DNA from: Lophium mytilinum
Lineage: Eukaryota
Assembly (NCBI GenBank): GCA_010093605.1
Contig: MU004198.1
Location: forward strand, 1,118,726 to 1,182,725
Reading direction: 5' to 3'
Length of the DNA: 64,000 nucleotides
Made by a program: the position numbers and the translations under genes. The notes beneath the pieces are model-generated. The model saw only the letters and a program-made list of their open reading frames with translations. It was not told the DNA's origin and ran no database searches. Positions 29,360-61,825 of the stretch are shown piece by piece. Position 1 is the stretch's first letter. Every line of letters starts with the position of its first letter.

Positions 29360-30790
29360 TTAAACAACAAACCCGCTAACCCCAAAGTTGGTCCTCCTGG
29401 TGAGCGAGTCAAGTGTCGACGTATTGCTGCCTGACTGCATATCAGGATAGACTCTCTCGCTCGCGCTCCGGTCAAACCGCCCACCAACATCCTGCAAAAA
29501 CTGTGCATTGCGCCGTCGCTTCTTCATAGACCGACCTATCGGAGCTAAGACTTCGATGCCGACCAACGTGATGACACCAGCCAAGAGCCCGAATGCTTCA
29601 TCCATCTCAAATATTGATTGCGGAGCGCAAGGCATAAAGAAGCAGGACGTACTGAAAGACTTACCGCCCGTAATGGCAATCTTGCCGAAAGAGATAAGTC
29701 CGCAAACAGTGATGAGAATACATGCAACAGGAAGAGGTAAATAAGACAGATACATATAAAACCACGGGGTAGCCGCGATAATATATAACAGCCGTTGCCA
29801 ATCTGAGTCACTACCGAAAATCAAGCCTATAAGAATCGTGGCAACGGAAGCTAGAGTCATCGCGCCAAGTACGGCATATATTCCGAAAAAAGCTGAAGGC
29901 TTGAAATCCCTGCGTCTACGATATGAAGAAGAAATGATGTACGCGAATGCAGCAAAGATGCCAAGAACAAGGAATTGAGCCCCTGTCGAATGTATCCAAG
30001 AGAGTAGGAAGTAATGAAGCCAGGAGTTTAGCCCATCCCAATACACGGCTGGTATTCTGCTTGTATGACAGTCAACCATAGAGCCGTTCTCGATGTCGTG
30101 AAACACCACAGACTGAGAGACTGCGGGAAGAACCAGTCCGATTGCAGGTGTCCAGAACCTGGCCTTGTATCTGTTTGCGCGGGCATAGAAAGCAGTCTGC
30201 AGGCTTCCGTTCAACATCCCCATCCATACAATCGTCATCGAGGCAGCATAGCTCTCCATCAAGAAGTCCGTAGGCTGGTTATTTTGCAGCAACTTGGTAA
30301 GCAGTTTGATTCCGTCAGATAAGATCTATGGCTGCGCCATTGGTAGCTAGGAGGAACCCCCAGGTATCAGCGCCAATTGCTGACTTATTGTCCGTAACCA
30401 AGCGGATCCAAGACCCGGTGAGCCAGAGAATAAATGCTGCCCATCCACCTGGCCCGTAGAATCCGCTCACTTGCGAGATACCCAGGATATCCGGCGGGCT
30501 TGGTGATAAAGGCAAATGCAGGGCTATCCGCGTAGTAGTGCTTATATTCATCGTGCTTGTGTTCATTGACAAGGCGAAAGACATTTACACGAAGGTAGAG
30601 GGCGAAGTCGCTGAGAATGGCCGTGAGTCTTTTGGGCCCTGATATGGTGGATATATTACATTGGCATAAGCTAGAATACTAGAAGAATGTAAAGGTAAAT
30701 CGATGATACAGCCAAGAATGGAGATACTACAGCCACACTAGGACTCAAAAATGGTATGATGGAGGGTTGCAAGAAGGTTTTATGTTGCTT
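29360..30790 (-). pseudogene. SGFYGPG/CFFMPCAPQ membrane-protein family copy A, pseudogene
   Basis: Contains PPDILGISQVSGFYGPGGWAAFILW and CFFMPCAPQSIFEMDEAF. There is an in-frame TAA just before 30584, and a TGA at 30317-30315 followed by a 1-nt frameshift (AAIDLI*R/IKLL versus AALDLIRRIQQV in copy B). The 5' boundary is approximate. Confidence 0.8.
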
Positions 30791-31076
30791 GAAATGCGTG
30801 TAGAAAGGAAGTAGAAAAGAAGGCTGGAGGCCCAGGAGGCCGCTGCGACGAAGAGGCGGGGTGTTCCAAGCTTCAACTAGCTTTATGGGGTTAGATCGTC
30901 ATATGATGTGATCTCTCGCCCTTCCCCTGACCTCCACCTCAAACTCCACTGCGCCGCACCCGTTCCGCACTGATGCCGTTGCGTCCTTACAACGTACCAA
31001 GCCACTGCTTGCGTGAAAACTCTAGCCGTCTCGCCCCGTTTTGTCCCAGCTTGGGTTGCAGTCTCTAACAAATGCG

Positions 31077-36384: not shown

Positions 36385-36650
36385 AAGTACGCTAATCCAC
36401 AGAACTAACGCTTCCCATCCACCGTGTGAGGTTTCGAGGATATCCGGCGGGTTCAATGATCAAGGCAAGTGATATACGCGTGGTAGTGTTTATGTTTATT
36501 GACTAGGTGTGAGAAAGAAAAAATGAAGGTATATCGGGTCTCCGCAAATCCGCAGAAAGATGTGAAATTAAATCGCCAATATATCCAGGACAGTAGAAAC
36601 TGAAGTCATACTGAGCTCGAGGTGATAGAATGAAGGGAAAGTTTGCGACG
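36385..36650 (-). pseudogene. Degenerate 5' fragment (A') of the SGFYGPG family, closest to copy A
   Basis: 36445-36503 (GGATATCCGGCGGG..AAGGCAA..CGCGTGGTAGTG..TTGAC) aligns with 30485-30570. Translation gives PPDILETSH-------GGWEALVLW versus PPDILGISQVSGFYGPGGWAAFILW. 36555-36620 also resembles 30680-30747. Confidence 0.65.
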
Positions 36651-36954: not shown

Positions 36955-37570
36955 TCATACAGCTTGTCCAACGATGCTGGAATTGGTTCTCCGACTCAAC
37001 TTCTCCAGCTCCGAGTTGGTACGGCTGGCGTTCTTCTTTTCGAAGCCCGAACTGACTCTTTCCCGTTCGTTGATCCCCATTCCAATGCGCTTATTGACAT
37101 TCTTCTCAAATAGCCTCTTTTCGCGCAAATTTTTGGACCATGATTTTACGATTGGTGGCGCGATCTCGAGCCCAACCAGCGTGGCAAGACCAGCGAGAAG
37201 TGCAAATGCCTGGTCCATCTCTAGAATGGACTGCGGGGCGCAGGGGATAAAAAAACAAGATTGGGGAAACGATTTCCCTCCTGTGAGAACGACTTTCAAG
37301 AATGAGAACCAAGCGTGGAATGGAAGAAAGACGAAGATGATGCTCATAGGCATGATTGTCGCTACCATCGGAATTGCTGGGGCAACGCAGATCCACATTA
37401 CCATCTCGAAGTTGGCGCTATTGGTTGGTATGCGCAGGAGGCCGAGGACGCAAAGAGCCAGACCGAGCATAGCGCCAGCAGTGAGAACCACGTTTAGGTA
37501 GATGCGGTAGAAAACCCCCCATATTTGCTCCCAATTAAAGGAGCGAAATACTAGAGCCCTAACGCATAGG
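36955..37570 (-). pseudogene. SGFYGPG family copy B, 3' half (gene interrupted by an LTR retrotransposon)
   Basis: Contains CFFIPCAPQSILEMDQAF. The frame is open up to the LTR edge and continues in frame from 54967 when the element is removed. Confidence 0.85.
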
Positions 37571-37775
37571 TGTAGAATTCTTAATATATAGTTAATATTT
37601 AGATATTATATATATAATATATAGATCTACTATAGAAATACTTTTCTATATAGATTTAGTATAATTAAGGCCTATATAGGCCTCTCTAATATATATATAG
37701 CCTAGCTAGATTTTTATATAGAATTAATATCTATTATTCTTTAAATTCTTATATTATATAATTAGAAATATTATA
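37571..37775 (+). repeat. 5' LTR of the outer element
   Basis: TGTAGAATTC...AAATATTATA, colinear with 54762-54966; the differences seen are C/T or G/A transitions. Confidence 0.92.
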
Positions 37776-39215
37776 TCTAGTAGCTTAGTTATAGTTTTAG
37801 CCGCCTCTAAGGCCTTCTTAAAGGGCTATTAGATTCTTAAACTTAATAGTATAGAGCTAGCTAAGGCTATATTTTTATAATTAACCCTTAGTAATAATAA
37901 AAGATATTAGCTTCTATAATTAGTAGAATTTTTAGATTATTATAATAATACTAAGCTATATTAATAGTTTCTACAAATTAACCTAATTAGTAATTAATAA
38001 TAACTATTAATAATAGCCCCTAATTAGTATTAGGCCAGCGTTATAGTATAACTACCTATTATAAATATTCTTATAAAAATTAAATAGTATAGATTTAAAG
38101 AGCTCTTAGCTAGAATATTACTATAGAATTTTTCTATCCCTTTTAATACTTCTATATAACTAACTATACGTTCTATTAGCTACTAAAGCAAGATTAATAG
38201 TAGAATGGCAAGAAGAATAATATTATAGCTTAATAGAGCCTAATAATTATATAGTAATTAAAAATCCTTATAAGTTAATTATAAAAAGAAGGCGGAGAAG
38301 TCCTTTTAAGAATTCTCCCTCTCTAATAGAATATTAAAAAGTATTTAAGAAAGAAACTTAATATTACTATCTTAGTACTCTTTTCTTACTCCTTACTTTA
38401 ATTATATTATAGTTATTAACTCTTTTCTACTCTTTCTTATTCTTAGATATTCTATAACTCTTAGCTTTCTTTTATATCTAGTAATAGATATTATTATTCT
38501 AATAAATTACCTTTTAACTTTTAAGAACTCTTTTAAAGGCTTTCTTAGTTTAGTACTATATCTTATAATCTATCTAATTTAATATTAGCCTTATAGGCTA
38601 AGTAGACCGCTACTTTAGAACCTATTAAGCTACTAGTTTAAGGTCCTCTAATTATTTATAGTAGTGCTCTAGCCTATAATCTAGAGCTTATCTATTAAGG
38701 GCTATTATTTATACCTTTTTTAGATAGCTATTAATACTTTTAAGCCCCTATAATAGAGTATATAATAAATTACTAAGAACTAGAACCTTTTAGTTCTATA
38801 TTAGCTTCTTTTATATAATAGTAGTAGGCTACTATACTAGAATAGCTATAAGCTATAGTTTCTAATTACTATACCTATATTAAGAATATATTAGATAATC
38901 TCTAGTAGTAGCCTACTTCTTAGAGTACTACTAACTTCTAGAATCTATTATCTAATACTTTCTTAGATTATCTAATGCTAGACTATAATAAGCCTCTATT
39001 AGAATAAACTATATAAGAGCTTTAATAAGCCTTTAAAAAAATATTAGCTATAAGAGAACCTTATCTAATAGCGCTACCTAAAGTTCTTATAAGAACTCCC
39101 GCTATATAGTTAGATAAAGTTAATAATAATATATACTCTATCTAGATAGTTTAAATATATAACTTTATTACTATATAAGTAGACGCCTATTAATAGGTTT
39201 ACTAGTAGATACTAG

Positions 39216-39417
39216 TATTATAGTCTATAAGAGGCAAGGCACGGAGTATAGTATTAAATAAGGAATAGGGTATATTTATAAAGATAAAGTCGCGTAGAGG
39301 TAGAGGTTCTACGCGGTAGAGGCTAAATATAGGCTAGAGGTATAAAACCGCGCTAGTGCACGGGCTTATATAATATAGCTAAGAATATATAATATATGCG
39401 GAGCTAGATTTATTACA
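39216..39417 (-). repeat. 3' LTR of the inner element
   Basis: Colinear with 46904-47105 (…GTCTATAAGAGG…GCGGAGCTAGAT…). Confidence 0.92.
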
Positions 39418-42400
39418 CTACCCCTCTAAAATAAAGAAGAGAAAGAAAAGGCTATATAAAAAGAGAAGGCTATATAGTAAGGCTATAGTAGACTAAGGAA
39501 AATAAAATACTAAGAAAATATAGTTGTAAGTAATTAAATAAGAACCGCGCAAGGAAGGGGCGTACTTACGGTGTTATAAAGGTAGGCGTTCCTATTAAGA
39601 TAGCTTAGCTAGCTAGGTGCAGTAGAGAATCCGGGTCTTAGGGTTATAAATAATATTATAATATTACTGCGTAAGGTATATAATTAGAGTTAATAAACGC
39701 GTATATTATAGATTGTTAGCGCGCGCTTATTAAGGACTTATTACTAATTAGGGTTAGGCCTAAAATCTAGGTAAGGGCCGTTAGCATTATAGTAATAGTA
39801 GTAGAACTTACTAATAAGCTTATTAGCGCTATATTTACTAAAGTTAGTCTAGTTCTACTATATTTATAGTTTAGTATAACCTTTATACTAGGCGCGGTAT
39901 TATAGTTTACGGCCGTAACGGCCGCGTTGCCGCTAATAGCTATCTATAATAAAATTAATTAGCTATATATTAATATAATCTTACTTATTATCTATTATTC
40001 TATAGGGGTTAACAACCTATATAGGCGGTAGAGGCGGTAGGTTCTATTCTAGTATAGAGTTAGGCTAAAAGAGATAGAGAAGGTAAGAATAGAAAACGTT
40101 ATGCGTATAACGTCTCTTAAGTAATATTCTAGTAAAATTAAGCTAAAAGGCGTAGCTCTAGTCTACAACTTTAGTAATATAGAAGGGGCTAAGGTTCTTA
40201 TAATTAAGTAAGTAATTAGGGCGCTGGGTTTTAATATTGCGTGTGTTAAGCTAGATAAGATTATCTACTTTAAAGCGTAGTGGTGGCTATTAATATTAAT
40301 TAGTAAAGTAGGCTTAGATAGCTATAGCCTAGGTAATAGCTTAGCAGCATTCTATAAGGATCTCTTTTATTTAATTAGTGTATTAGTTAGCTAGTAGCTA
40401 CTTATTATATACTATAGCGCGCCCTATTACTAGTATAGAGGGTTTAATACCTAATTATAGGTAGAAGCCGCAAGTAGTAAAAAAGGGGGTAAAGCCTATT
40501 AAGGCTAATTTATAGTTATTAACGGTGAATTTACTAAGGGGAAGATAGTTAACCTAGTTATTCTAGTAGTATAAAATAAACTAATATAGGTATACTTTTA
40601 TAATAGAGTTAGCGTTCTTAGTCTAGCTATTAGTTTTAGAATAGAAAGCGGTAGAAAACTTAGGCTTAACGCTAAGTTATTTATATAAGCGGCGCTATAC
40701 AGTAGATATAAATTATACGCCGTAATTACTAATAATTACTTTAGGTAAGCTGTATAGTTAAAATACTTTGCAGATAAAGGTATTAGTAATGTCTTTAATA
40801 GTGTTGCTAGTTATAGAAATATAGTAGCGTTCTTTAGATAGTTAGTTAACTATAATAAGAATAAGTATATACGTTTATCTATTTTATATATAAGAAGGCA
40901 GATCTATAATAAAATCTATAGTAATTTTAGTCTATTACTTATCTAGTATATTAAGGCTATATAGTAGTTCTTACTATTTATCTTAAAAGGCTTTTACTTA
41001 GTAGTAGCTATAATAGGCGCCTATATAGCGCTTAATATTATTATAGAAGTTAGGCTAGAAGTAGTAATATTAAAGAAGCTTATAGAAGCTATGCTTACTA
41101 AAGTAGCTAGTAATAGAAGTATTATAAGATAGGCTAAGTAGCTTAGTATATAGCTAGTTATAGGCTAGTATATATAGATAGTTATAGTAGTATAGCTAGT
41201 TATTCTATAATTTAAAGCTATTAATATTAAGGTTACTAATAAGGTTATAGAGGGCTTTTAGAATAAAGCGGGTGCTACTTTAGATAATATCTATAAGCTT
41301 ATATAGTATAGAGTTATATAGAGGTTTAGATTAAGGTAGATATATATAGGCCTTATTAATAAGGTATTATAGGTTATTATTATTATAGTTAATATTATTA
41401 TTATTATTATTACCTTAAACTAGCTATGCTATAATAACCTTATTAGTAGCTACAATATTCTTATTAGCTAATAGAGCTATAAAAATCTTATTAGTATCGC
41501 CGGGTAGCGCCGCGAAGTTCTTGTTAGTGCTTCCGTTGCTATTACTGTTATTATTAGCACAGTCGTGGCTGTGTAGCCTAGCGGGGGCAAGTTAGAGGGG
41601 TAAGAGAAAGAGAGAATGTATTTTAAGAGAGGATTATAGTAAGGTTATTAGAAGAGGCTTAAGTTTCTTAGTGCACGGAAGTAGCCTATTTTAGTAAAGT
41701 ACGTGGAATAGCCTAAGGGCGCCGGGCTTACTTAGTTTAGCGTTATTTAGTAAGAGTAAGGGTAATTTACTATTTAGTATAACTCTAGGTCTAAAGTTAT
41801 AAGATTTAAGTACGGTTTAATATTAAAATTAATTTTATAGATTATTAAGGCTGTAAGGTAGATTCTATAAATAGTAAGTAAGGCTATTAGGCTTACCCCC
41901 TAATATGCTAGGGCGATATATAATCTTAAAGTTAAATCTAGTAAGAAACTTAGTCTATTATGCCTAGTAGCGATTAAGTTTCTTTATAGTTATAAACTAT
42001 TTAAGATTATAGTAATCTATAAGAACATTAGTTAGGTTCTTAGAGTTAGTACTTATAAGCTCTAGTTACTATTTTTTAAAGGCTTTAATAATAGCAAGCA
42101 ACTCTTTATTATAGATCTTATAGTTATATTTAGCTAGTAATATCTTAGAAGAAAAGAAGGTAACTAGGTAGAGAAGGCTATTAGGCCTAATTTAGGATAT
42201 AACGCCGGCTATTATATAATTAGAAGCGTTAGTTTTAAAAAAAACCTTTTTACTATACTAGAAGTATATAAGGATAGGTGCTTCTATAAACGCCTTTTTA
42301 AGCGCGCGGAAGCCTTTTTTATAGGCCTCTATCTATAAGAAATAGGGTTTCTTCTATTCTTCTTAGAGCTTTATTATATTAGTAAGAGGTTTAATAATAC

Positions 42401-45400
42401 GTAAGAATCTATAGATAAACTATTAGTAGAAGTTTAATAGTCTAATAAAGGCTTAGATATCTTTAATATAGTTTAGTATACTCTATTTAAGAATAGTAGT
42501 AACTTTCTCTAGATCTATATAGATCCTATTAGTAGAAATAATAAGTTCTAAGTAGGTAACCTCTTTCTAGTTAAACGCGCACTTAGATAAGTTAATATAT
42601 AGGCCTACTATCTCTAGTCTTTTAAGAATAGCTGTAATATAAGCTTTATAGTCGGCTTTAGAGCCTTCTATATAGATAAGGATATTATTAAGATACGCTA
42701 TATAGAATATATTAAGGAAGTTATGCAGTATTTAATTAATAAAGGATTAGAATATTCTAGGCCCTCCTATAACGCTAAAGGGCATAATAAGGGACTTATA
42801 TTTACTATAGTATATTATAAAGGCTATTTTATATTTATAGCTAGGGGCTATATAGACTTTATTAAAGGCCGCAATAATATTAAGCTTAGTAAACTACTTA
42901 GCTTTACTAAGGCAGTAGAGGGTTTTCTAGATAAGCGGGATTAGGTATTATATTTTAATAGTAAGGGCGTTAACGGCTCTATAGTTAACGCAGAACTAAA
43001 CACCGCCCCCTAGCTTACGTATAAAAAGGATAGATAAAGAGACTTATAACTGCAAGCGTCTAATATAGCCTTTAGCTAGGTTATTATTAAGCTATTTCTT
43101 AATAACTTAGAGCTTATTAGTAGATATTAGGTATAGACGGGCTTTAGATAGCTTACTAAGGTTAATACTATTAACCTAGTTAATTTTATAGTCTATTCTA
43201 GGTCTATATAGAGGAAGTATATCTATATTAACTTAGTTAAATATATAAATATATCTATATAGGCTAGGGGGAAGCTTTATAAATATCTTTTTCTTAGTAT
43301 AGTATTGCTTAACTTCTATAAATTTCTTAATATTGCGTATAGCTAGTTTATAGAGGTAGACTAGTATATTACTTATTTACAAGGCTATAATCTAGAGGTA
43401 GTTAGAATAGAGTAAGAAGTTCTTACTAGTATTAGTAAGGTTGGCTGTAATGTATTAAGGTAAGTTATTAAGCTAGTCTCCTTTAATAGCGGCTATGCGG
43501 CGCATAGTAAGGTAGGCTATAATACCTATATATTATATAGAGTCTATAGAATTAAAAAGTTATATAATATTATAATTATATATAAAATTAGGTAGTGCTA
43601 AGCCTTTTATATAGGTAGTAGCGCTATTAGTATTATTTATATAGTAATAGTAATATAGGTAGAAAATTCTATTACATTTTTCTTTTATAAAGTTAATCTT
43701 ACTAGTAACCTAGTCTATAGCTAGATTATAGCGCTAGAACTAGCAGAGGCCTAAGATAATATTATAGTCGCTAAGGTTAGTAATATAGGCCTATTCGCGG
43801 CCCTAATAGCCTTAAATAGCGATAGGAATAAGAGCTTTATAGGTAATCTTTTTAGCAATAGCAGAGCTATTAGCTAATTTAAGTATTTATAATTTAGGTA
43901 AGGGGTAAGTAGAGAAGTTTATTTAGTGCGCATAAGTAGTATTTATAAATTTATTAGTTACTCTAGTATTACTGTAAAGGTATTCTTTAATTATATCTAG
44001 TAGTTATCCTTTATAGAAACGCTAGACTTTAGCTAGAACTAGAAAGCTATAGAGGGTCTTTTTATTAGTTTAACCCGCTTAAATATTATTACTAAGAGAG
44101 GTAGCTAAAATAACTAACCTTCTTAACTATAACTTTATAAATTCCTTATTTTTATAGTATTAGACTGCTTTAGTAATAATACGCCCTAGATCGCAACTAT
44201 AATCTAGAATTAAGTATTTCCTAAGTGGCTCTAATATTAAAATTAGCCGTATTTTATAAAAGGTCCTCCCGCGCCTCTAGATAAGATAGAAGTATTAATG
44301 CCTACTTTAGTAGTAGCTAGCGTAAATATAGTAGGGGGCGTATATATAGACGGAGCGTATATAGATAGGGGTATATATATAGTTAGAATATATATAAAGG
44401 GGGCGTATATAGATAGAGCTAGGGTTATAATATTATTTAGATATATACTAATACTGCGTAGGGCAAGTATAGAGCGCTCTATAGAATACTACTAGTTAGT
44501 AGAAGTATAGCTAATAAGCTAGTAGTAGAAGTAATAGTTCTTATTTATAAGCTAACGCTTTTAATTATCTATAAGGCGGCCTAGAGCTAGGCGCTGCTAA
44601 TTAGTAGAAATATTAACGGGAAAGTTTATAGCTTTACAAGTTACTAGCGCAGATATTTAGTAATTCTAGGTAGGCGTATTTATCTAGCCTTAGCTATAAT
44701 TATTCTAGTAACCTTAGCTCTAAGTATTTTAAGAGACCTAGTTCTAAGTAGCTTAAAACTAACCTATTAGGGTCTAATTAGGGGGGTTCTAATTAGAAGG
44801 GTTCTATAGGCGGTTACCGCGGTAGCTACCGCAGTAACTATTATTAGTCTAGGAGTTATTAGGCTATTAGCTATACTGTCTAGGCTAGTTATATAGTTAG
44901 TATAGCTAGGTATAGTTAACTATAGCTTAGTCTAGAAGCTAGTTATAGTAAGCATTAATAACTTTATATTCTTTCTTATAATGTTTTTCTAGAACACCCG
45001 CAGGCTTAGTAATACCGGGGCGGATCTTTATCTTAAGCGCGGTAATATTCTAATAGTATTCTTAGTTTAGTAGTTATACTATAAGTGCTTAGTATTTTAT
45101 ATAGAATATATTAAGGTTATTATTACTCTATATTAGTTAGTTAAGTTACTAGAAAGTAATAGCTTTAGAGTTATATAGCAGGTTCTTAATATTAAGGCGC
45201 TTAATAGCCTTATTAAGAGTATAAAAGGGCTAGTAGCTAGTTATCCGCGCTATATAGTTACTAAGAGGTGTGCCAGTAAGGCATATACTAAGAAAGTAGA
45301 GGCGGAAGCCTTTATTATATTAATAGAGACAGCTACTATAAGTAAACTTACTAAGAACCTAGTAACGCTAGGTAATATATTTAGTTTTATTACTATTATA

Positions 45401-46903: not shown

Positions 46904-47105
46904 TATTACAGTCTATAAGAGGTAAGGCATAGAGCATAGTATTAAATAAGAAATAGGGTGTATTTATAAAGATAAAGTCGCGTAGAGGTAGAGATTCTAC
47001 GCGGTAGAGACTAAATACAGGCTAGAGGTATAAAACCGCGCTAGCGCACGGGCTTACATAATGTAGCCAAGAATATATAATATATGCGGAGCTAGATCTA
47101 TTATA
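46904..47105 (-). repeat. 5' LTR of the inner element
   Basis: Colinear with 39216-39417; followed by the TSD ACTAG. Confidence 0.92.
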
Positions 47106-49672
47106 ACTAGAAACTTAAAAGATTTAGCTAGCCGGTAGCTATATAGCTAGAACTATAGCTATTTAATAGAACTAAGATATTTAATAGTACTACTAAGGTA
47201 ATACTAAGTTTACTATATTAGATTAGTTTTTTACTACTTTTAGCCGCTACTATAAAAGCGTAGATACGCCGGAGTAATACTAATACTGCTTTAATAAAAT
47301 AGTATAGATAACTAGTACTTATTAGTTCTTTAATAAGCTTATTAGAGCTACTTATATATATCCTTTTAATATAGCTCTATCTAATCTTAAAGTATATTAA
47401 CGTGCCTATATAGGTTTAAAACCTAGCCTTAAGTTTTATATTAATGCCTAAGTATAGACTTCTTTTAATTTTAATAAATAAATAGCGTAGATTACTACTA
47501 CTAATAAGTATTAAATCTCCTAGTATAAGAGAATAAGAGACTATTAGGGCTACCTTAATACTATCTCTAGGGCTAATAAAGAATTAGATAATAATTATTT
47601 CTAAGAAACTAATATTAATTCTAATAAATATAAATATCTAGATACTAAAGATAATGCTAAACTTAATACCTTTAAAGGTAGAAATACTACTAAATCTTAA
47701 AGATGTAGTTAAGGCTATAGTAGATATAGTAAAGGTAATACTTAATAGAATACTAATACGCGTAAGTACTATAATTATAGTAAGAAGGGCTATATTAAAT
47801 ATAACTATACTTAGCTAGCTAAGAAGCTATTAAAAAACTAGGAGGGTTAGTAGCCTTAGAGTAACTAACTAATTTAAAAGATAAGACTTCTACTTTTTAT
47901 AAACTTATAATAGAAAAGGATTAGCCGCCCTTTAATAATTCTTTTAACTAAATTATTATTAAATTAATAGAAGAAAGAATCTACTATCTTAACTCCCTAG
48001 GTAAATATCTTTTAGAATATAAGGAAACTTTAGAACTATCTAACTATTAGAAAAAAACTACCTTCTTAATTAACTATAGCGCTAATTCCGTCTATATATT
48101 ATTAAAGCATGCTTAATATTAGCTAAAGAATATTAAAATAATAGCCTCTAAGGTAGTTAAACTCCTCTTAGATGTAACTATAATTAGTACAAAAGCCTTA
48201 GAGATTTTATTTAAAATTTATATACTATTAGGTACTCTAACTATATATATCCTAGACCTTAAAGAGTATTAATGCATTCTTAGTATAACCTAGCTATAGT
48301 AATACTAAGCTATTATTAACTTCTTTACTAATTCTATTACCTTATAAATGCAGGTTAGCCGCAACCTAAAGATTAAACTAGTAGCTTATTAGCTTAATAT
48401 ATTAAGCCCTATTATAGACCTTAGTCTTTCTAAACTAGAATACTAGGGTTTTATTAATATAATATTCTATTAGAAGTATAAGAGGCTCTTAGTAGATAAG
48501 CTTAATTCCGCTTACCTTTATATTATAAAAGCTTCTAATAAACTAATACTAGATTAGGTACTATAACCTAGCACTAATCCGCTATTAGAAGATAAGAATT
48601 TATTACCCTTAATTAATTATATTACTACTTCTATATAAGAGAAGTTTTAAGAGCTTCTTAAAAAGTATAGACCTTATTTCTATAATATTCTTCCTAATAT
48701 TCTACCGCCTAAGTATAGATATAACTATTTAATTAATACTAAAGATATAAAGCTAGTAAATAATACTATATACTGCCTCTTATATTATTAAATAGAAGAA
48801 TAGACCTAATAGATCTATAAGCTACTAGAATAGGGCCTTATTTAAAAGTCTATTAGTATCTAGAGATCTCTAGTTCTTTTTATTCTAAAGCTAAATAGTA
48901 AGTAGTAAATATATATTAACTATAGAGTACTTAATCTAGTAACCTAGAAAAATACCTACCCCCTACTATATATTAATAACTACCTATAGTTATTTAGAAA
49001 GGCTAGGTTCTTTACTAAGATTAATTTAACCTCTAAATATTACTAGCTGCGCGTTTATTAATTAGACGTCTATAAGACTACTTTTAATATAATTAAAGAA
49101 AAATTTAAATTTCTAGTTATACCTTTTAGCCTCTATAATACTTCTACTACCTTTTAAGCTATTATAAATAATACCTTATAACTATACCTATATTAATTTA
49201 TACTTATCTATATAGATAATATTATAGTATTTTTAAAAATATTAAAAGAGTATCTTAACTACCTCTAATTATTATTTAAAGCTCTTAGAAAGAAATAACT
49301 ATTTACTAAAACTAATAAGTACTTAATTACTTAAGAAACTATTAAGTTTTATAGCTATATAGTTTCTTATAGAACTATAAAACTAATAACTAATAAACTA
49401 GATACTATTTAGTATTAGCCTATTCCTACTAATATCTATAAGGTCTAATAGTTTATTAGACTAGTAATATACTATTAAAAGTTTATTAAGAACTTTACCT
49501 ATATATTAGCACCTCTCTATAAGCTTCTAAAGAAAAGTAACGCTATAATATAAAAAAAAAAGTACTAAGCTATTATATAGAATATTAGCTATTAAATTAC
49601 TTTTAACTCCCTTAAGTAAAAGCTTATTAAACGCCCTGTGCTCGCCCTTATTAACTAGTTAAAGCCCTTTTA

Positions 49673-50637
49673 NNNNNNNNNNNNNNNNNNNNNNNNNNNN
49701 NNNNNNNNNNNNNNNNNNNNNNNNNNNNNNNNNNNNNNNNNNNNNNNNNNNNNNNNNNNNNNNNNNNNNNNNNNNNNNNNNNNNNNNNNNNNNNNNNNNN
49801 NNNNNNNNNNNNNNNNNNNNNNNNNNNNNNNNNNNNNNNNNNNNNNNNNNNNNNNNNNNNNNNNNNNNNNNNNNNNNNNNNNNNNNNNNNNNNNNNNNNN
49901 NNNNNNNNNNNNNNNNNNNNNNNNNNNNNNNNNNNNNNNNNNNNNNNNNNNNNNNNNNNNNNNNNNNNNNNNNNNNNNNNNNNNNNNNNNNNNNNNNNNN
50001 NNNNNNNNNNNNNNNNNNNNNNNNNNNNNNNNNNNNNNNNNNNNNNNNNNNNNNNNNNNNNNNNNNNNNNNNNNNNNNNNNNNNNNNNNNNNNNNNNNNN
50101 NNNNNNNNNNNNNNNNNNNNNNNNNNNNNNNNNNNNNNNNNNNNNNNNNNNNNNNNNNNNNNNNNNNNNNNNNNNNNNNNNNNNNNNNNNNNNNNNNNNN
50201 NNNNNNNNNNNNNNNNNNNNNNNNNNNNNNNNNNNNNNNNNNNNNNNNNNNNNNNNNNNNNNNNNNNNNNNNNNNNNNNNNNNNNNNNNNNNNNNNNNNN
50301 NNNNNNNNNNNNNNNNNNNNNNNNNNNNNNNNNNNNNNNNNNNNNNNNNNNNNNNNNNNNNNNNNNNNNNNNNNNNNNNNNNNNNNNNNNNNNNNNNNNN
50401 NNNNNNNNNNNNNNNNNNNNNNNNNNNNNNNNNNNNNNNNNNNNNNNNNNNNNNNNNNNNNNNNNNNNNNNNNNNNNNNNNNNNNNNNNNNNNNNNNNNN
50501 NNNNNNNNNNNNNNNNNNNNNNNNNNNNNNNNNNNNNNNNNNNNNNNNNNNNNNNNNNNNNNNNNNNNNNNNNNNNNNNNNNNNNNNNNNNNNNNNNNNN
50601 NNNNNNNNNNNNNNNNNNNNNNNNNNNNNNNNNNNNN
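49673..50637. other. Assembly gap (965 N) within pol of the outer element
   Basis: Run of N. Confidence 1.
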
Positions 50638-53600
50638 CTTATAAAGCTAATAATTAATTAAGATATAGCTATATAGAATATCTAGTTACTAGCTATAGTA
50701 TATATAATATATACTTAGAATACCTTCTATAGCTATACTCCCTACTACCTTATATATAGTAGATATCCTTAAGTACCTAATAATACTTTAGTACTAGTTC
50801 TTAATAAAACTATAGATAAAGAAGCTAAATTAGAGCATTATTTAGCCTATATTAGAAAAGTTTAATACACGTATATACTAGTAGAAGATTAGCTACTAAA
50901 GAAAGTAATTATAGTAGGCCTATAGAATCTATAACCTCTATCTAAGAAGTATCTAGTTACTTAATAGAAGATTAGTTTCTAGGCACTTCTTTAAAATAAG
51001 GTTAAGAGAAAATTTAGAGTAAAATAGTTTAGTCTATTTAAAATTATTACTACTTATCCTCTTAGTATCTATACGCTTTAAACGCCTACTAATTAAGTAT
51101 TAAAGAACCTTATTTATAGTAATAGATTAGTAAATACACGCATTAATACTTATATAAAGTTTTAGAACTAAGAAGACTCTAAATATAGCTTAGAATATTC
51201 TAATAATATATTAGAAGATAACTAAGTACTTTAAAACTAAGAGGATTTTAATAATACTAATAAAGAGCATACTATATATTAAGAAGAAATTAAACCTAGT
51301 AATAATACTATCGCGGATGCATTAAATATAAACAACGCTAATAGAAAGCTATAGTCTAAGTTTACTATAATTTCTAAAGTAGAATAGAATTAAAAGATTA
51401 CTAAATATTAATTAAAATAGTAGTATAAGGGCGCGGAGCTCTTCTAGAAAGGGGAGAAGAATACTTAGAAACCGCCTAAACTAAAGCTATATTAAATACT
51501 AAGAGATTTTAAAAAAAGAGTTCTTAAGAGAGACTAATAGGCTACTAAGAAAAAGAAACCTAAAAAGGGTTAATTAACTATTATACTAGTATAGGTTACT
51601 AGCTTTATAGTTATATAATATAAAGATGTAGGTAAGACTACTATAAATACCTATTAGAAAGTTTATATATATAAGCCGGAAATAAGTTAAAATAAGCTTA
51701 ATATTCTATAGGGAACTAGTAATTATATAGTACCTATAGAATAACCTAATAATGCATTAGTGCTAGCTATAGATACTAATAATAGAGAACTATTAGAAAT
51801 AGCTTAAGATAGTAATAGAATATCTAAGAGTATAAATACTACTATTTAATTACCTAATACTACGCACTAAGATAATAATAAGTATAATAGAGATACTATT
51901 ATTATATAGCTAAGGGGTAATGCTATTATTTAAACTAATAATACTATAGAGCTATAGAATAAAGGAATTAACTTAAGAGCTAAGAATACTAAAATGCGCA
52001 TAAATAATAAGTCCTTAAATAAGAATGCTAACTCTAATATTTAATTAGAGAGCTCCTCTAGTAGTAATACTAGTATAATAGATATTAAAGATAATAAAAA
52101 TACTAGTAGTAATTATAAGTTAGATTTAGATAGTAATTTTAATGCATCTATAATATAACCTACTTAAGCTCTTAATATAGAGTTGCGCGGAAGAAAGTAT
52201 AAAAAAGCTTAAATAGCGCTTCTATTCTAAGCTAATAGAGTATTAGAAGAACTCTATATATTTATTACCTAGATTTTCTTTATTAATTTAGATTTAAGCG
52301 TTTAATTCTTTATTATTACTTATTTAGCTATATTTTATCTTTAGAGAATTAAAAAGATAATAAATTTAAGAACCTATATTAAAGATTAACTAAGCTAAGC
52401 TTATACTTCTATTATACTTAACCCTTTTTATATCTAGAAGGGGAGAGAAAATTAACACTTTTCTATTAATACTAGCTAAGCTAATATACTCTTAGTCCTT
52501 CTAGATAGCTATTCTACTACTAGAACTTCTTCTACTAGAACTTCTATAGCTACTACTACTACTAGAATAGCTATTATTATTCTTCTAAGGCTATTTTAAA
52601 GGCGCGCTCTAAGTTAATATATTTTAGCTATACTTACTAGCTCTATTCTTTTAGAAAATAGTATTTAGAGAGCCTATTTAATACTAAGTAGAGTTTAAAG
52701 AGGTCTCTCTAGTAAAGTTATTATTATTACTAATAGATAACTAGAATAAGCGGCAGCTTAATAGTATATTAGAAGTAGGCTCTTAGAAGCACTATAAAGA
52801 ACCTAAAGAAGAATAATAAAAGATTAAAAAAGTTAAAGAAGTTAAAGGCTAAGTAGAAGAGGTTAGAGAGTATTACCTTAGATCTTAAGTACTAGAACCT
52901 AAAGTAGCTATATTTTCTAAATCTAATATAGCTGCGGATAATTACTAAAAGCTAGATCTTAAACTAGAAGCCTAAGTAGAGGTACTACTAGAGCCCTATA
53001 GATAATATTAAGCTATTAAAGATTTAAAAGTATAAGAAATACCTAGATTATATAGTAGTATAGTAGTCTTTCTTTAAATTAATTCTATTAGTAGCTATAT
53101 AGCTAAGGCTAAGTATACTATATTTTTAGCTAGGTTCTTAAGAGATTCTTAGTTATAAAGAGAAGATATAAACTTAGTAATATTATAGTAACCTTATTAA
53201 ATATAAGCTCTAGTAGTCTTTTAATAAGCTATTAAAGTCTACCCTTTTATAATAGGTATTAGCTAAGTTTTAAGATACTCTAAAAGTAAGGCTAAACTTA
53301 CTTTAGAATAAATAAGTTCTCTTACTACTCTACTAATAATATTCTATATAGAATTCTTAGTAGAAAGGAGAACTATTTAGATTATAAGCCTAAATATATT
53401 TACTAAACTAATAGTCTTCTAAGAATATTCTTAAGTAGTAGTTGCAGGCCCTAAAGGTAGAAGAAGCCCTAGAATTCTTACTATAATCTACTCTTAAGCC
53501 TAAATATTATTTAAGAAGGCCTATAAAGTATAAAGTATAGCTATAGTTTTTATTTAAAATTAGTTTATTATTTCTAATATTACTAAGAAACTCTTAAAGT

Positions 53601-54761
53601 AGTATATTTCTCTAAGCTCTACTACTACCTTTAAACTTTAGAGAGTATTTAGCATAGTTTAAATAATTAGAAGCTATAGTATAGTATTAGAAGGCTTAAG
53701 AAAGTAGAATAAAGTTATTAAAGGCTATTAGCTATATATAGTATAGATTATAGAACCTCTAGACTATTAAGAGGTTAATAATTAATATAAGTATAATAGT
53801 AACTAGATCTTATTAGCTTTATTAAGAGAAAGAGCTAAACTATTATTAAAAACTTACTATAGGCCTATAAGGCTTTATAAGCTAAGATACCTAAGAATTT
53901 ATAAGAGCGCGGAACCTTATAACTATAACTAGGGTCTAAAGAATTATTACCTCTATTTCTACCTCTTTCTAAATAAAGTAAGCTAGAGGCTATAGAACCC
54001 GGCTAGGTATTAAGTAATATTATAATACTAACTTAGAGTAAAAAGAAGTAGCCTAGAAGCTAAGAGAGAGAAAGTCCTAATAAAAGAATTAATAAAGAAA
54101 GATAATAGTAATAAGAAGAGAAGCTATAAGAGTCTTTAATAAACCTTTAAAGATAAGAGAAGCTTAAATCTTAAAGGAAAAAGTTAAGTATAGAAGAAAA
54201 AGTATAAAAGCATTAAGAAGGCCTTATATATACTCTAGATTCTTAAATCTATTACTTCTAGATTACTACTTACTGCTCTATAATATACTAATAGCTTTTT
54301 AAACCTATATAATATTATAAGCTTCTTACTAGATTATAAGAAACTTTATAAGATTTCTAATAAGCCTATTATTAGCTATTATAGCTTTAATTACACATTA
54401 GAACCTAATACGCGCTAGTATACTAATATTTATATTATCTTATAATTCCCTCTATTATAAATACTTTATAATCTCTTCTAATTCTTTCTTACTATTAAGC
54501 TATTAAATATTCTAATACCTCTATTATTTCCTACTAATATAGTAGTAGACCTCTAAAGAATTCTAAACCCCTCTTAGGTAATATTACTATAATATTACTA
54601 TCTACTAATATACCTTTTATAGTATTATATGCCCTTAAAAGCTTTAAAGCTTCTAAAGAAGCTAATAGCCTAATATACTAATAATATATAGTATAAAGTA
54701 GTAAGTATAATATACTATTATAAATATAATTTAATAGTAAATTAGATTTAGAAGGAGAGAA

Positions 54762-54966
54762 TATAGAATTCTTAATATATAGTTAATATTTAGATATTAT
54801 ATATATAATATATAGATCTACTATAGAAACGCTTTTCTATATAGATTTAGTATAATTAAGGCCTATATAGGCCTCTCTAATATATATATAGCCTAGCTAG
54901 ATTTCTATATAGAATTAATATCTATTATTCTCTAAATTCTTATATTATGTAATTGGAAATATTATA
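54762..54966 (+). repeat. 3' LTR of the outer element
   Basis: Colinear with 37571-37775. Confidence 0.92.
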
Positions 54967-55731
54967 TAGGCGATGCAAATAAATGCCGATGAGTAGCAGA
55001 ACGAGCATGAAGACCGGAAGCCATATCCAGTTGATGTAGAGCAAAACAGAATGAGCCGTGGGACCCATCCCGTTCCAAAACATAGCAGGAGTTTTGTCGT
55101 CCAGGGCTTTGATCTGTATTGAAGCTGCCGAAGCCATGGCCTGGGATAGCAATGGAATTACGAGGCCGCCACTCAACGTCCAAAACTTGATTTTGCGCCT
55201 CTCATGAAAGTATATCCCAAAGATGAGCGATTGTAGAAGTGTATGCATACTTCCCTGCCACACTATGGTCATTGCCGCACCGTACTGGGCCATGATCTCG
55301 TCCGCAGCCTGGTTTTCTAAGCGTACAGCATGCCGTACTTGCTGGATTCGACGTATGAGGTCAAGAGCAGCGTAGTTGGTGGCAATAACGAAGCCGAGAG
55401 TATTAGAATCCAGTTTGGACCGCTTTTCCGTGAACACACGGTACCAGGAGCCAACTACCCAAAGCATCCAAGCCGCCCACGCCCCTGGTCCATAGAAACC
55501 GCTGACTTTGGAAACCCCTAGTGGGTCGGGTGGTGCTGACGATATATATAAGTAGACTGGTAGATTTGTGGGCGTCCCGGTGGATGATGAAGATGAGGTT
55601 CCTGTTGAAGTGGCCTGACGCTCCGCGCTTGCCACAGGATCTGGGGCCGGAAACAACTCTATCAAGAGGATGGAGAATGTGAGGGCAAGCAGAAGCAAAC
55701 TGATAGAATAAGATCTCTCGAGAAGAGTCAT
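54967..55731 (-). pseudogene. SGFYGPG family copy B, 5' half
   Basis: ATG at 55731, hydrophobic leader MTLLERSYSISLLLLALTFSILLIELF, then PPDPLGVSKVSGFYGPGAWAAW. The frame runs into the LTR after ...IYLHRL. Confidence 0.85.
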
Positions 55732-56378: not shown

Positions 56379-57710
56379 ATGTTAACATCATCACTTCTCT
56401 TCCTTTTCATTACATCAGCCTCTCTCGCAGAGCCATTAAGCCCACATCCTACGATATCAAAGCCGTCTCTTCAAGCTCCGACCCCAAGCTCAACCATCAA
56501 CACACTCGCGTCGTCTCCAACATCAAGCTTATTCTACATGCAACTGCCAATCCACCCCACACCACCAGACCCGCTAGGCATCGCTCAAGTCAGCGGCTTC
56601 TATGGCCCCGGCGCATGGGCCGCCTTCATCCTCTGAATCCTAGGCTCCTGGTACCGCCTCTCCGCAAACCGCAACAACCTCGTTGAACGCAAAAAAATCG
56701 ATGCCAATGCAGGCGCATTTCTCCTCGCAACCAACTGCGCAGCCATCGACCTCCTGCGCCGCGTTCCCTCCTGCTTAGAATCATCGCAAGTCGACCCCAG
56801 CGCTGTAGACGGTGAGAAAGAGATGGGCAGCTTCGGAGCAGCCATCATCATCGTGTGGGTCGGCACCGCGAACTCATGGGCCCAAAGCTGGATGATGCTG
56901 GAGTGGGAGATGTTGGCCGAGTTTGTAGAGGACGTTCACTCGTTCAGAGCGTTAACTCTTATCGTTGGTCAATTCTTACCGTCAGTAGCCCTGGCAACGG
57001 TGTCCTTAATCTCTTGGGTCCTACTCGGGGGTGGTCTCGATAGAATACCGGCGATATACTGGCAGGGGTCGTCCGCGGAGGTGCAGTGGGTGTTCTCCCA
57101 AACCGCGCTCTCGCCCGGTGTGCTGATGTACGGCGCGTACTGGTTCTGCCTTGTCTACGCCTTGTGCACGTGTTTTTCTAAACCGGTGAGGTTTCGCGCA
57201 GGAAGAGTTTCCGGGCTGTTTGTTTTGATTATCGTGGTCCTCGGCCCTCCGTTACTTTTCTTCTTCGTGGCAAGATCGTATTCGCTTTCGTATCTCAGGA
57301 TATGTTTTCTTCCCGTTGCCATTGTGCTCACTTCTACTTTATGTATGGTGTTACCCTGCTACGTCCTACTTTACGTTCTAAAGCAATTTTCGAGCTTTGT
57401 TTTCACACGGGGCCACACGTTTGATGAGGCATGTTTTTTCATGCCTTGCGCGCCGCAGTCTTTGCTAGAGATGGACCAGGTTTTCGATCTTGTTGTCGGA
57501 GTTTTCTTGCTTGTAATCACTGAAGTCGCGCCATCAATTCTGGAAAGGCGACGCGAAAAACGCAAGTTCAAAGAGGAAGTTGAGAAGCGGATCGAGGCTG
57601 CTATAAAGGAAAGAACAAGCTCCAACATTGGAACGACGCATACCAGTCATACGGACGTAGATAGTATCAGTCGGAGGACCAATTCGGGAATGACCAGACA
57701 GATAGTCTAG
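56379..57710 (+). pseudogene. SGFYGPG family copy C with a single premature stop (TGA 56634-56636)
   Basis: Signal peptide MLTSSLLFLFITSASLA; PPDPLGIAQVSGFYGPGAWAAFIL*ILGSWYRL, where the stop replaces a Trp found in copies A and B. The same frame continues through ORF 56823-57710 with CFFMPCAPQSLLEMDQVF. Confidence 0.85.
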
Positions 57711-59609: not shown

Positions 59610-60538
59610 CGCAGGAGAGAAAGTCTCCCTAGCATCTTCGCGGTCGCGCAACTACCTATGTATAACCGGTTAAACCGAGGGGTACCTTGTGGGCCGAACC
59701 GTACGTGGGAACATGCGAGATGAAGATCCAATAACTTCATGCGGGTAGGGTTCAAGGATAGCGCAGGCCAGTCAGAGGCGCGAGCTTGAGCAAAGTTCTT
59801 GATTCAGGTCACTAACAGCGACCAAAGGAGAGTGGTGCGCTGGTGATCCCATGTAACTACTGTGCATATAGCTTAGTGACGTTACGATCTCCTCTCAATT
59901 CATATAAAGGTAGGCGACGACCGTCAGCGCGATAAATAAGGCCGCAGGGGGGCCTATCGCATTTGTCAATGGGTGGATAGTGGACATGCAAATTAACGAT
60001 GAAATTTCGCCGCATCTCCACAGAATCGCCTAGCCAGAGGCGTGGAAAACCGTTCACGACGCTTGAAACATGAGGCTGAAACGTAGACCGAGTAAGACGG
60101 GACGATAAGCGAAGCTAGGCGTTATTGCGCACACAGCTGCCGATGATATTTGCCGTCAATATCATCTGACTTGTGCGGGTATGAACAAATATGTTTCTTT
60201 TTAGGGCAGACCCGAATTCGTGTTGGTATTTGAGTAACGCCCTGGCCCTGTTTGGAATTCCTCACAAGTAGCATGTCGTCAGCGTGTACACCTGATTCCA
60301 GACTCAAGCCTCGAAGTGCGGGCCCGTCCCGCGTCCCGTCCCGCAGATCGAGTAGCGTAGGGGAAACTGTAGGTAGTACTTGAATCATGTCGTGCATTGC
60401 ATTGGTGCATAGCATTGAATAGGATACGGTCGCAAGAGCGCTTGCGAAGAGGTTCGAAGCCTAAAGTCGTGACTGCTTTTCAAGCATTCTCCGACATGTT
60501 GTATTGGGATGTGTAATCAGGAAATGAGAGAAGATCTT

Positions 60539-61825
60539 TCAATTTTGGCCCACGGCATTCGTTCGCTGACCCATTTCCAGCTCAATCTTCTGCCTCATCT
60601 CCTCCTCGAAAGCGCGTTGCTCCTCTTTCTTGCGCTCCCAACGACGTATAACATTAGGTCCAATCTCCGTCCCAATCAGAAGTGATACGGCCACGAACAG
60701 ACTAAAAGCTTGATCCCAATCGGTAATGGGTTGCGGCGCGCAAGGCATAAAGAAGCATGACCGCGAATGGTCACCGACAAGAAGCTGTATAAGACTCAAC
60801 AGCGGCAACAAGAAGAGCGCAAGACATTGTAAGAAGAGGAAGTACTGCAGGACCAGGAAGGGAGAGCCCATGAAGATGATCCAGACTTTGTCCTCGTCGA
60901 CAAATATCATAACAAGAAGCACAAGCATAGAGAGCGTTGACCACATAAGGAGAGCAGTGGTGAAGAATGATCCCAGCCTTTTGTATGGTTGGTATGCTTC
61001 CTTGAACTTGATCTTGGTGCGTTCAGAGGCGTTATTCCACCACATTTGGAGGTATACACCGGCTCCAACAAACAGGGCCCACGGTCCTATAAGACACGCG
61101 TGAAGGACTCTGTCTCCGTGGTTTTTGAATTCTTCTGCCGTCAGATCTGATCCGGAGTACAGCCCATAGAGTGCCGGAATGTTCGACCAAACCGAATCCG
61201 GAAGTGCGGTATCGTTGAAGAACCCAAAGGTAAAGAGCATAAAAGACAGCGTAGTCAATGGAAGGACCATGCCGCTGACCAGAGTCAGCACTCTTCCTTC
61301 CCGCACTTTGCGAGGTCGTTTCGAACCTTCGTCGATGAGCTGAATGCCGCAGATCTGCATGATTTCATGCATGACGCCCCAGAAGACGATGGTGAAGGCG
61401 GCACCGATGGATCCGAGGTGCTTGTCGCTGGAATCGTCTCCCGAGTTTTTGAGGACTTTGAGCGAGTGGACATGCCTAATGAGATCAACTGCAGCCCAGT
61501 TGATTGCTAATATGAAGACCCAAGTGTTGGGGTCTAGTACATGGCGCCGATCAACCACAAGGCGGTACCAGGATGCCGCTCCCGTGACAACCCATGCTCC
61601 CCAGGTTCCTGGACCATAGAATCCGCTGACTTGCGAGATACCAAAGACATCAGGCGGTGAGGACGAGATTGGAAGGGATTTTGGAATCGCTGGAGGTAGA
61701 GGTATTGGAGATTTGCTTGGTGCTGGGGATGTAGAGGAAGAAGCACGAGGGATGGCACTGGCTGTCACGCTAATGGGTTGACCAAAGACAAGAACGAAAC
61801 ATAACAAGATACAAGATGAACGCAT
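60539..61825 (-). CDS. SGFYGPG family copy D, intact (428 aa) multi-pass membrane protein
   Basis: Signal peptide MRSSCILLCFVLVFGQPISVTA, S/P-rich linker, PPDVFGISQVSGFYGPGTWGAW, several hydrophobic helices, CFFMPCAPQPITDWDQAF and a charged tail. No lesions seen. Confidence 0.85.
   Translation of the reverse strand: MRSSCILLCFVLVFGQPISVTASAIPRASSSTSPAPSKSPIPLPPAIPKSLPISSSPPDVFGISQVSGFYGPGTWGAWVVTGAASWYRLVVDRRHVLDPNTWVFILAINWAAVDLIRHVHSLKVLKNSGDDSSDKHLGSIGAAFTIVFWGVMHEIMQICGIQLIDEGSKRPRKVREGRVLTLVSGMVLPLTTLSFMLFTFGFFNDTALPDSVWSNIPALYGLYSGSDLTAEEFKNHGDRVLHACLIGPWALFVGAGVYLQMWWNNASERTKIKFKEAYQPYKRLGSFFTTALLMWSTLSMLVLLVMIFVDEDKVWIIFMGSPFLVLQYFLFLQCLALFLLPLLSLIQLLVGDHSRSCFFMPCAPQPITDWDQAFSLFVAVSLLIGTEIGPNVIRRWERKKEEQRAFEEEMRQKIELEMGQRTNAVGQN

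What the first reader, a model, noticed from the sequence alone, without database searches (positions are those of the whole stretch)
29360..61825. Cluster of an unrecognised multi-pass membrane protein family in rapid birth-and-death: five loci, one intact
Seen: A (29360-30790, -), A' fragment (36385-36650, -), B (36955-55731, -), C (56379-57710, +) and D (60539-61825, -). The four full-length copies share an S/T/P linker, PPDx(L/F)Gx(S/A)(Q/K)VSGFYGPGxW, a Nx-AAxDL motif, roughly 8 hydrophobic segments, CFF(M/I)PCAPQ..D(Q/E)xF and a charged tail ending near RTN; B, C and D keep a hydrophobic leader. The middle of the protein is highly diverged. All appear intronless. A carries stops and a frameshift, B is split by a transposon, C has one nonsense codon. 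Inference: repeated independent loss of diverged tandem paralogs is the pattern seen in conflict or recognition genes (non-self recognition, receptors for toxins or viruses, toxin immunity). I recognise no named domain, so the function is unknown.
Basis: partly seen in the sequence, partly recalled or inferred. Interest (0 to 1): 0.75.

Follow-up and report, generated by a model that had tools for sequence, protein, structure and literature searches.

The report
Decaying cluster of unnamed fungal membrane proteins
Four old neighbouring copies of a fungal membrane-protein family that nobody has described sit here, and three of them were recently broken in three different ways, so the family is real and conserved but each copy looks dispensable.

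Summary
A family profile finds four full-length copies (A, B, C, D) and nothing else in the window. A short A-like stub (A') shows up only by DNA comparison.

- **D** is intact (428 aa).
- **C** has one nonsense codon, a TGA where its ortholog has W.
- **A** has a +1 frameshift and a degenerate 5' end.
- **B** is split by a RIP-degraded LTR-retrotransposon nest with flanking 204-bp repeats and a 4-5 bp target duplication. Removing the insert restores the reading frame.

The family is real but undescribed. It has 452 representatives, all named ones from Pezizomycotina. No Pfam family fits, and no solved fold matches a confident model (pTM 0.86).

The copies are only 28-35% identical. B and C each pair with a gene from another organism, and an AU test rejects an in-situ expansion (p 7.5e-5).

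The "death" half stands: three independent lesions, each recent, because the broken frames are otherwise still open.

Function is unknown. My best guess is a transporter, channel or sensor built around a conserved polar and cysteine site in the membrane. A role in conflict or recognition is not supported, but it is not excluded either.

The parts
60539..61825 (-). Copy D: intact gene, 428 aa, with leader, S/T/P linker, about 8 helices and a charged tail
   Evidence: Single ORF. It matches family HMM positions 17-421 at E 2.7e-121. All 18 invariant residues of alignment A1 are present, though D is itself the reference row of A1.
56379..57710 (+). Copy C: pseudogene with a single nonsense codon, TGA at 56634-56636 (codon 86)
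   Evidence: HMM positions 4-82 and 85-420 are contiguous, leaving no room for an intron. The ortholog P0097 has W at this position.
54968..55731 (-). Copy B, N-terminal half, up to the retrotransposon junction
   Evidence: HMM 6-248, E 8.7e-61. Start MTLLER at 55731. Junction read.
36955..37570 (-). Copy B, C-terminal half, from the junction to the stop codon
   Evidence: HMM 267-414, E 3.4e-33. The frame is continuous with the N half once the insert and one target-site copy are removed...IYLHRL|CVRALVFRS.
37571..54967 (.). Insert in B: RIP-degraded LTR-retrotransposon nest. It includes 204-bp direct terminal repeats (37573-37776 and 54764-54967) and a run of 965 N (49673-50637).
   Evidence: Repeats are 97% identical. 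Target duplication is TAGG or ATAGG. GC is 17-34%, TpA/ApT 1.4-2.05 and (CpA+TpG)/(ApC+GpT) 0.04-0.27. RVT_1, RT_RNaseH_2 and RT_RNaseH lie on the minus strand near 41.9-43.0 kb, and a second RVT_1 on the plus strand near 49.0-49.4 kb.
29360..30584 (-). Copy A: pseudogene with a +1 frameshift at 30318-30325, no leader, and in-frame stops just upstream of the first usable ATG
   Evidence: HMM 36-118 and 135-417 lie in two frames. Unique changes at conserved columns: D98G, L182P, Q372E.
36400..36499 (-). A': stub of about 100 nt that resembles only the 5' coding part of A (the PPDIL codons), with a 21-nt deletion removing QVSGFYG. It lies 450-550 nt downstream of B's stop.
   Evidence: blastn 75% over 68 nt; alignment; local score 55 against shuffles 19.9 +/- 2.0.

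Best explanation
The region holds four old paralogs, plus one stub, of an undescribed multi-pass membrane-protein family. All named members come from Pezizomycotina.

Shown: the duplications predate the split from the organisms that carry P0094 and P0097. All copies kept the family's invariant motifs. In this genome three of the four were then disabled independently:
- A by a +1 frameshift, with a decayed 5' end.
- B by an LTR retrotransposon that was later nested and RIP-mutated.
- C by a single TGA where the ortholog has W.

D belongs to a different branch of the family and is the only intact copy.

Inferred: the losses are recent, because each broken copy is otherwise an open frame. The copies are also individually dispensable.

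Inferred with low confidence (about 0.3): the protein is a surface or secretory-pathway membrane protein. Its N terminus faces outward, in about a third of members behind a leader and an S/T/P-rich stalk. Its K/R-rich tail is cytosolic. A conserved site is buried in the membrane, made of N109, D114 and Q157, the structured non-helical SCFFMPCAPQ segment, and D371/Q372. This site would bind a small ligand or ion. That makes the protein a transporter, channel or sensor rather than a variable recognition molecule.
For: Anatomy of the copies.

The family is real:
- 69 homologs at E <= 1e-3.
- 452 representatives at E <= 1e-3, of which 161 at E <= 1e-30.
- 18 invariant and 21 near-invariant columns among 33 sequences.

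Old duplications:
- Pairwise identity is 28-35%.
- A, B and C form a clade with P0094, P0097 and P0117, with support 98-99.
- C+P0097 has support 100 and B+P0094 has 95-98.
- The AU test rejects A+B+C as one clade (dlnL 109, p 7.5e-5).

Recent losses:
- Simulated neutral change leaves all pieces of a copy open in 36-42% of 1000 runs at 2% divergence, 9-16% at 5% and 1-3% at 10%.
- C departs from its ortholog at no invariant column, B at one and A at one invariant plus two near-invariant columns.

The damage is specific to this family. RIP indices are normal outside 38-55 kb. The neighbouring MFS (582-aa ORF) and Kelch (397-aa ORF) frames are open.

Structure and topology:
- The models are confident and all-helical: pLDDT 80.5 with pTM 0.76, and pLDDT 88.1 with pTM 0.86 for the core.
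- Net charge across 33 sequences is +2.1 for loop 3-4 and +1.2 for loop 5-6.
- The tail carries 11.9 K+R.
- The N-terminal region is -1.2, with 0.52 N-glycosylation sequons per sequence.
- Loop 4-5 is -2.2.
Against: - The frameshift in A and the stop in C could not be checked against reads.
- No expression data for D could be examined.
- The function rests only on conservation and predicted structure. No solved fold, family or paper supports it.
- The number of membrane spans is unresolved. The model gives eight helices, but an outward N terminus with a cytosolic tail needs an odd number.
- Only 37 of 109 motif-bearing members have a leader, so the stalk is not a family trait.
- The AU test group was named after the tree had been seen.
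- The patchy distribution, the tandem pairs and the pseudogenes elsewhere would also fit a conflict-type family.
Confidence: 0.72

Rival explanations
1. One reading: the family is a conflict or recognition locus (non-self recognition, a toxin or virus receptor, or immunity). Frequent duplication and loss are then driven by antagonistic selection.
For: - Three independent loss-of-function lesions occur in one cluster.
- 9 of 31 distinct metagenome loci hold tandem pairs, and 6 of 31 hold unambiguous stops or frameshifts.
- The middle third of the protein varies greatly in sequence and length.
- Neighbours in other loci are of accessory type: HET in L005 and L043, PKS pieces and a P450 in L036, CHAT in L021, ankyrin in L002.
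Against: - There is no recent birth. The paralogs are 28-35% identical and have orthologs elsewhere.
- The extracellular-facing motifs are the most conserved parts, not the most variable.
- The C ortholog is 63-64% identical, with every conserved column kept.
- No neighbour recurs across loci.
- No control pseudogene rate was measured for other genes on the metagenome contigs, and frameshifts there may be assembly errors.
Confidence: 0.15
2. Collateral damage: the copies are broken only because they border a transposon and RIP island. On this view the decay reflects the neighbourhood and says nothing about whether the family is dispensable.
For: B is hit directly by a retrotransposon. C starts 1.4 kb from the AT-rich block. 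That block shows extreme RIP indices.
Against: - RIP indices are normal in every 1-kb window outside 38-55 kb.
- If C's stop arose from TGG, the G-to-A change sits in a GpG context. That is not the CpA/TpG context that RIP prefers, a preference I recall rather than tested.
- A lies 7 kb from the island, with intact MFS and other frames in between.
- Both halves of B are free of stops.
Confidence: 0.1
3. Partly an artefact: the single-base lesions in A and C are sequencing or assembly errors. Only B would then truly be a pseudogene.
For: Each is a one-base event, and no reads could be laid on the region.
Against: - The A frameshift is not in a homopolymer.
- A also lacks a start and leader, and has three unique changes at conserved columns.
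- The stretch is held by two DNA runs at 0.97-0.98 of its sampled words. These may be the source data, so they are not independent.
Confidence: 0.1

Closest known systems
Uncharacterised proteins XP_033573341 (Mytilinidion resinicola; P0097) and OCK82609 (Lepidopterella palustris; P0082), and other 'hypothetical proteins' of Dothideomycetes, Leotiomycetes and Penicillium
   Same: They belong to the same family. P0097 is the ortholog of C (63-64% identity) and P0082 is the nearest named relative of D (36%). All motifs are shared.
   Different: None has a name, a Pfam family or a paper. Searches for six locus tags, for PEX1_093010 and for the motif GFYGPG found 0 papers.
Fungal Pth11-like and other 7TM receptor families (comparison recalled, not from a call)
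   Same: They are multi-pass proteins expanded in Pezizomycotina, with an outward N-terminal region and a cytosolic tail. A few class B GPCR chains appear among the weak Foldseek rows.
   Different: D has no match to any Pfam family. The GPCR rows have probability 0.28 or less and TM-score 0.29 or less. The model shows eight helices plus a structured Cys loop.
Birth-and-death gene families of fungal non-self recognition, the HET and NLR loci (recalled)
   Same: Clustered paralogs, pseudogenes and accessory-type neighbourhoods.
   Different: Those proteins are cytosolic, have known domains and show young duplicates. Here the duplicates are old and the protein is an integral membrane protein with invariant motifs.
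CPx motif (Cys-Pro-Cys/His/Ser) in a membrane helix of P1B heavy-metal ATPases (recalled; a lead only)
   Same: An invariant Pro-Cys, with a second Cys and a Met close by (C357, M360, P361, C362), sits in or at the membrane.
   Different: There is no ATPase domain, no sequence or fold match, and the segment is not helical in the model.

Membership tests
The undescribed family itself (profile of alignment A1) | End-to-end match to the profile, including VSGFYGPG, N.AA.DL, PALY and SCFFMPCAPQ..DQ | tested here: met
   Read through with X at the breaks, D matches HMM positions 18-421, B 6-413, C 5-420 and A 36-417, with E from 4.6e-124 to 5.6e-81. Motifs are shown.
Any Pfam-A family | Score above the curated gathering cut-off | tested here: not met
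   D's best hit has E 4.2. Of 37 other members, 0 pass a cut-off and 3 have sub-threshold hits at E 0.005-0.009.
7TM receptor (GPCR-like) fold | Structural superposition on solved 7TM receptors | tested here: inconclusive
   Foldseek found 0 matches at E <= 1e-3. GPCR rows have probability <= 0.28 and TM <= 0.29. The best VIA scores are Z 9.0, to designed helical bundles over 148-161 residues.
Birth-and-death (conflict-type) gene cluster | Recent, lineage-specific duplications | tested here: not met
   28-35% identity between copies. B and C have sisters from other organisms. The AU test gives p 7.5e-5 against A+B+C as one clade.
Birth-and-death (conflict-type) gene cluster | Repeated independent loss of function | tested here: met
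   Three different lesions occur here. 6 of 31 distinct metagenome loci have an unambiguous stop or frameshift. No control rate was measured.
Birth-and-death (conflict-type) gene cluster | Diversifying selection or presence/absence polymorphism | not testable with these tools
LTR retrotransposon (Ty3/gypsy type) as the insert in B | Direct terminal repeats, target-site duplication, and RT with RNase H | tested here: met
   204-bp repeats at 97% identity. TAGG/ATAGG on both flanks. RVT_1 at 1.4e-14, RT_RNaseH_2 at 3.4e-17 and RT_RNaseH at 5.6e-10. Integrase and Gag were not found at E <= 1e-3, and 50638-54763 was not scanned. The gypsy assignment from the RT_RNaseH domains is recalled.
RIP-mutated repeat island | TpA/ApT above 0.89 and (CpA+TpG)/(ApC+GpT) below 1.03 (thresholds recalled) | tested here: met
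   The indices are 1.44-2.05 and 0.04-0.27 in all seventeen 1-kb windows from 38001 to 54001. The flanks give 0.39-1.11 and 1.03-1.6.

The most novel reading that the evidence does not exclude
The family is a new membrane-protein fold. Four long N-terminal helices and a structured, invariant Cys-x2-Met-Pro-Cys segment, followed by Asp-Gln, would form a soft-metal or small-ligand site. That would make it an undescribed class of fungal transporter, channel or sensor. Its tandem copies would be gained and lost with ecological shifts.
Probability: 0.25. Interest if true: 0.7.

Novelty: new variant of a known kind. Interest (0 to 1): 0.45.

Why it matters
The family is widespread, with 452 representatives at 50% identity. 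It has strikingly invariant motifs, a confident predicted structure and no counterpart in Pfam, the PDB or the searched literature. That makes it a well-defined target for naming and characterising a new fungal membrane-protein family.

The cluster also gives a clean example of old paralogs kept for a long time and then lost almost together in one lineage. One of the losses is precisely datable, because the retrotransposon's target-site duplication is still readable. As genome biology, though, gene decay next to a RIP island is a familiar pattern.

Tried and rejected
- **Whole genome:** the search for further copies failed because no genome is held.
- **ESM Atlas:** only 'hypothetical protein' clusters by features, and structural TM-scores of 0.30 or less.
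- **Other libraries:** a PDB sequence-profile search gave one hit at E 1.2. NCBIfam gave nothing below E 0.03.
- **Fold searches:** neither model matched a known membrane fold. This does not prove the fold is new.
- **Fused forms:** none found among proteins of 750-2140 aa. This is weak evidence.
- **Ortholog of A:** a search with A's 321-aa piece at E <= 1e-10 found only P0014, at 33% identity.
- **Conserved neighbours:** 79 flanking ORFs from 15 metagenome loci show no recurring partner. The MFS and Zn-cluster pair next to A is not repeated elsewhere.
- **Sequencing runs:** four holders were listed and none is on record as RNA. Polymorphism, read support and expression are therefore untested.
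- **A' upstream homology:** not above the shuffles.
- **LTR divergence as a clock:** rejected, because all differences between the two repeats are C:G to T:A transitions, as RIP would make.
- **dN/dS among the paralogs:** not attempted, because synonymous sites are saturated at 28-35% protein identity.
Full report
**Observation.** The window is fungal. No whole genome is held for it.

With D as the tblastn query I recover C, both halves of B and both frames of A. I built a profile from D and 32 homologs (alignment A1) and ran it against all 2266 six-frame ORF pieces of the window. It finds seven pieces, with E from 2.7e-121 to 9.1e-19. Nothing else scores better than E 3.9. The region therefore holds exactly four full-length copies.

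**The lesions.**
- **D** (60539-61825, minus strand) is one open frame of 428 aa.
- **C** has a single in-frame TGA at 56634-56636. The profile is contiguous across it (positions 82 and 85), so it is not inside an intron. Its ortholog has W at that place.
- **A** changes frame at 30318-30325 by +1, and not in a homopolymer. Its first fitting ATG is at 30584. In-frame stops lie upstream, where B, C and D carry a leader.
- **B** is split by 17.4 kb.

*The insert in B.* It is bounded by 204-bp direct repeats at 97% identity, and TAGG/ATAGG flanks both ends. Once the insert and one target copy are removed, the two halves join in frame as ...IYLHRL|CVRALVFRS. The insert has 17-34% GC. Its RIP indices are extreme in all seventeen 1-kb windows from 38 to 55 kb, while the flanks are normal. 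Read through with X at the stops, it shows reverse transcriptase and RNase H on the minus strand and a second reverse transcriptase on the plus strand. So at least two retroelements are nested there. It also holds 965 N, so its true length is uncertain.

*The stub A'.* It is real but short, about 36400-36499. It resembles only the 5' coding part of A, with a 21-nt deletion.

**The family.** D finds 69 homologs. The profile finds 452 representatives at E <= 1e-3, of which 161 reach E <= 1e-30. Every source name is 'hypothetical' or 'uncharacterised'. The named organisms are Dothideomycetes, Leotiomycetes and Penicillium.

No known family or structure fits:
- Pfam gives nothing for D, and 0 of 37 other members pass a cut-off.
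- NCBIfam, the PDB sequence profile and the Atlas give nothing.
- No fused forms were found.
- Three paper searches returned 0 papers.

Both AlphaFold models are confident: pLDDT 80.5 with pTM 0.76 for the whole protein, and pLDDT 88.1 with pTM 0.86 for the core, using 91 sequences. They show eight long helices and a structured non-helical SCFFMPCAPQ segment. Foldseek finds no PDB match at E <= 1e-3. The exhaustive aligner peaks at Z 9.0, on designed helical bundles that cover only the first four helices. That is within the noise expected for helical proteins.

**History of the copies.** The copies are 28-35% identical to one another.
- In a FastTree of 131 rows and an IQ-TREE of 48 rows, A, B and C fall in one clade with three proteins from other organisms (support 98-99).
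- C pairs with P0097 of Mytilinidion resinicola (support 100, 63-64% identity).
- B pairs with P0094 (support 95-98). D lies outside this clade.
- Forcing A, B and C together is rejected (dlnL 109, p-AU 7.5e-5). The caveat is that I named this group after seeing the tree.
- P0094 and P0117 each come from a contig of 4329 nt. That hints at a conserved tandem pair, but I could not fetch the contig.

So there is no recent birth.

The losses, by contrast, look recent. Apart from its one lesion, each broken copy is an open frame. Simulated neutral substitutions keep all pieces open in only 9-16% of 1000 runs at 5% divergence.

At the 39 columns conserved in at least 90% of A1, A, B and C depart at 7, 6 and 6. 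Most of these departures are shared with their intact orthologs. The changes unique to one copy are D98G, L182P and Q372E in A, M360I in B, and none at invariant columns in C. The likely order of decay is therefore A first, then B, then C.

**Turnover elsewhere.** The 46 metagenome loci collapse to 31 distinct groups. Nine groups hold same-strand tandem pairs. Six hold a stop or frameshift at a point where the profile is contiguous and at most 6 nt lie between the pieces. I have no control rate for other genes on those contigs, and frameshifts in metagenome assemblies may be errors. Flanking genes are diverse and of accessory type, with no recurring partner.

**Mechanism.** Charge counts over 33 sequences put loops 3-4 and 5-6 and the K/R-rich tail on the cytosolic side. 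They put the N-terminal region and loop 4-5 outside. A leader is present in only 37 of 109 motif-bearing members. An outward N terminus with a cytosolic tail needs an odd number of spans, but the model shows eight helices, so the topology is unresolved.

The most conserved polar residues are N109 and D114 in helix 2, Q157 in helix 3, C357, M360, P361, C362 and Q365, and D371/Q372. They suggest a buried binding site. This is inference, but it favours a transporter, channel or sensor over a variable recognition protein.

**Verdict.** The 'unrecognised family' and 'repeated independent loss' parts are supported. 'Rapid birth' is refuted, and the conflict reading is neither supported nor excluded.

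Noticed in passing
window 49673-50637: A run of 965 N lies inside the AT-rich insert. It is either an assembly gap or a withheld stretch, so the true size and content of the transposon nest are uncertain.
   Followed up: partly
window 37573-37776 and 54764-54967: All six differences between the two 204-bp terminal repeats, and the TG/TA difference just before them, are C:G to T:A transitions. The left copy carries the T or A each time. This is RIP-like, so LTR divergence cannot date the insertion.
   Followed up: partly
window 58364-59533 (-): A 389-aa open frame lies between C and D. It has a Cys-rich N-terminal part, a long S/T/P-rich stretch, one hydrophobic span and an R/K-rich stop-transfer sequence. 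It has no Pfam hit and looks like a single-pass surface protein.
   Followed up: no
window 31100-36003: A fungal-specific transcription factor (Fungal_trans domain, plus strand) and an MFS transporter (582-aa ORF, minus strand) sit between A and the A' stub. A and A' may once have been one locus next to B. This pairing is not seen beside family members in other loci.
   Followed up: partly
L005 9971-13482; L036 6117-11061: In metagenome loci, a HET-domain gene lies directly beside a frameshifted family copy (L005). Polyketide-synthase pieces and a P450 lie just upstream of another broken copy (L036).
   Followed up: no
L008, L010, L011, L015, L017/L019, L025, L033, L040: A shorter form of the family, which matches the profile only at about positions 45-200 and 270-400, occurs mostly as head-to-tail pairs on these contigs. 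The variable middle of the protein is therefore dispensable in part of the family.
   Followed up: partly
run X3: One run, guessed to be RNA and labelled as a different organism, holds 0.69 of the sampled words of 55000-62000.
   Followed up: no
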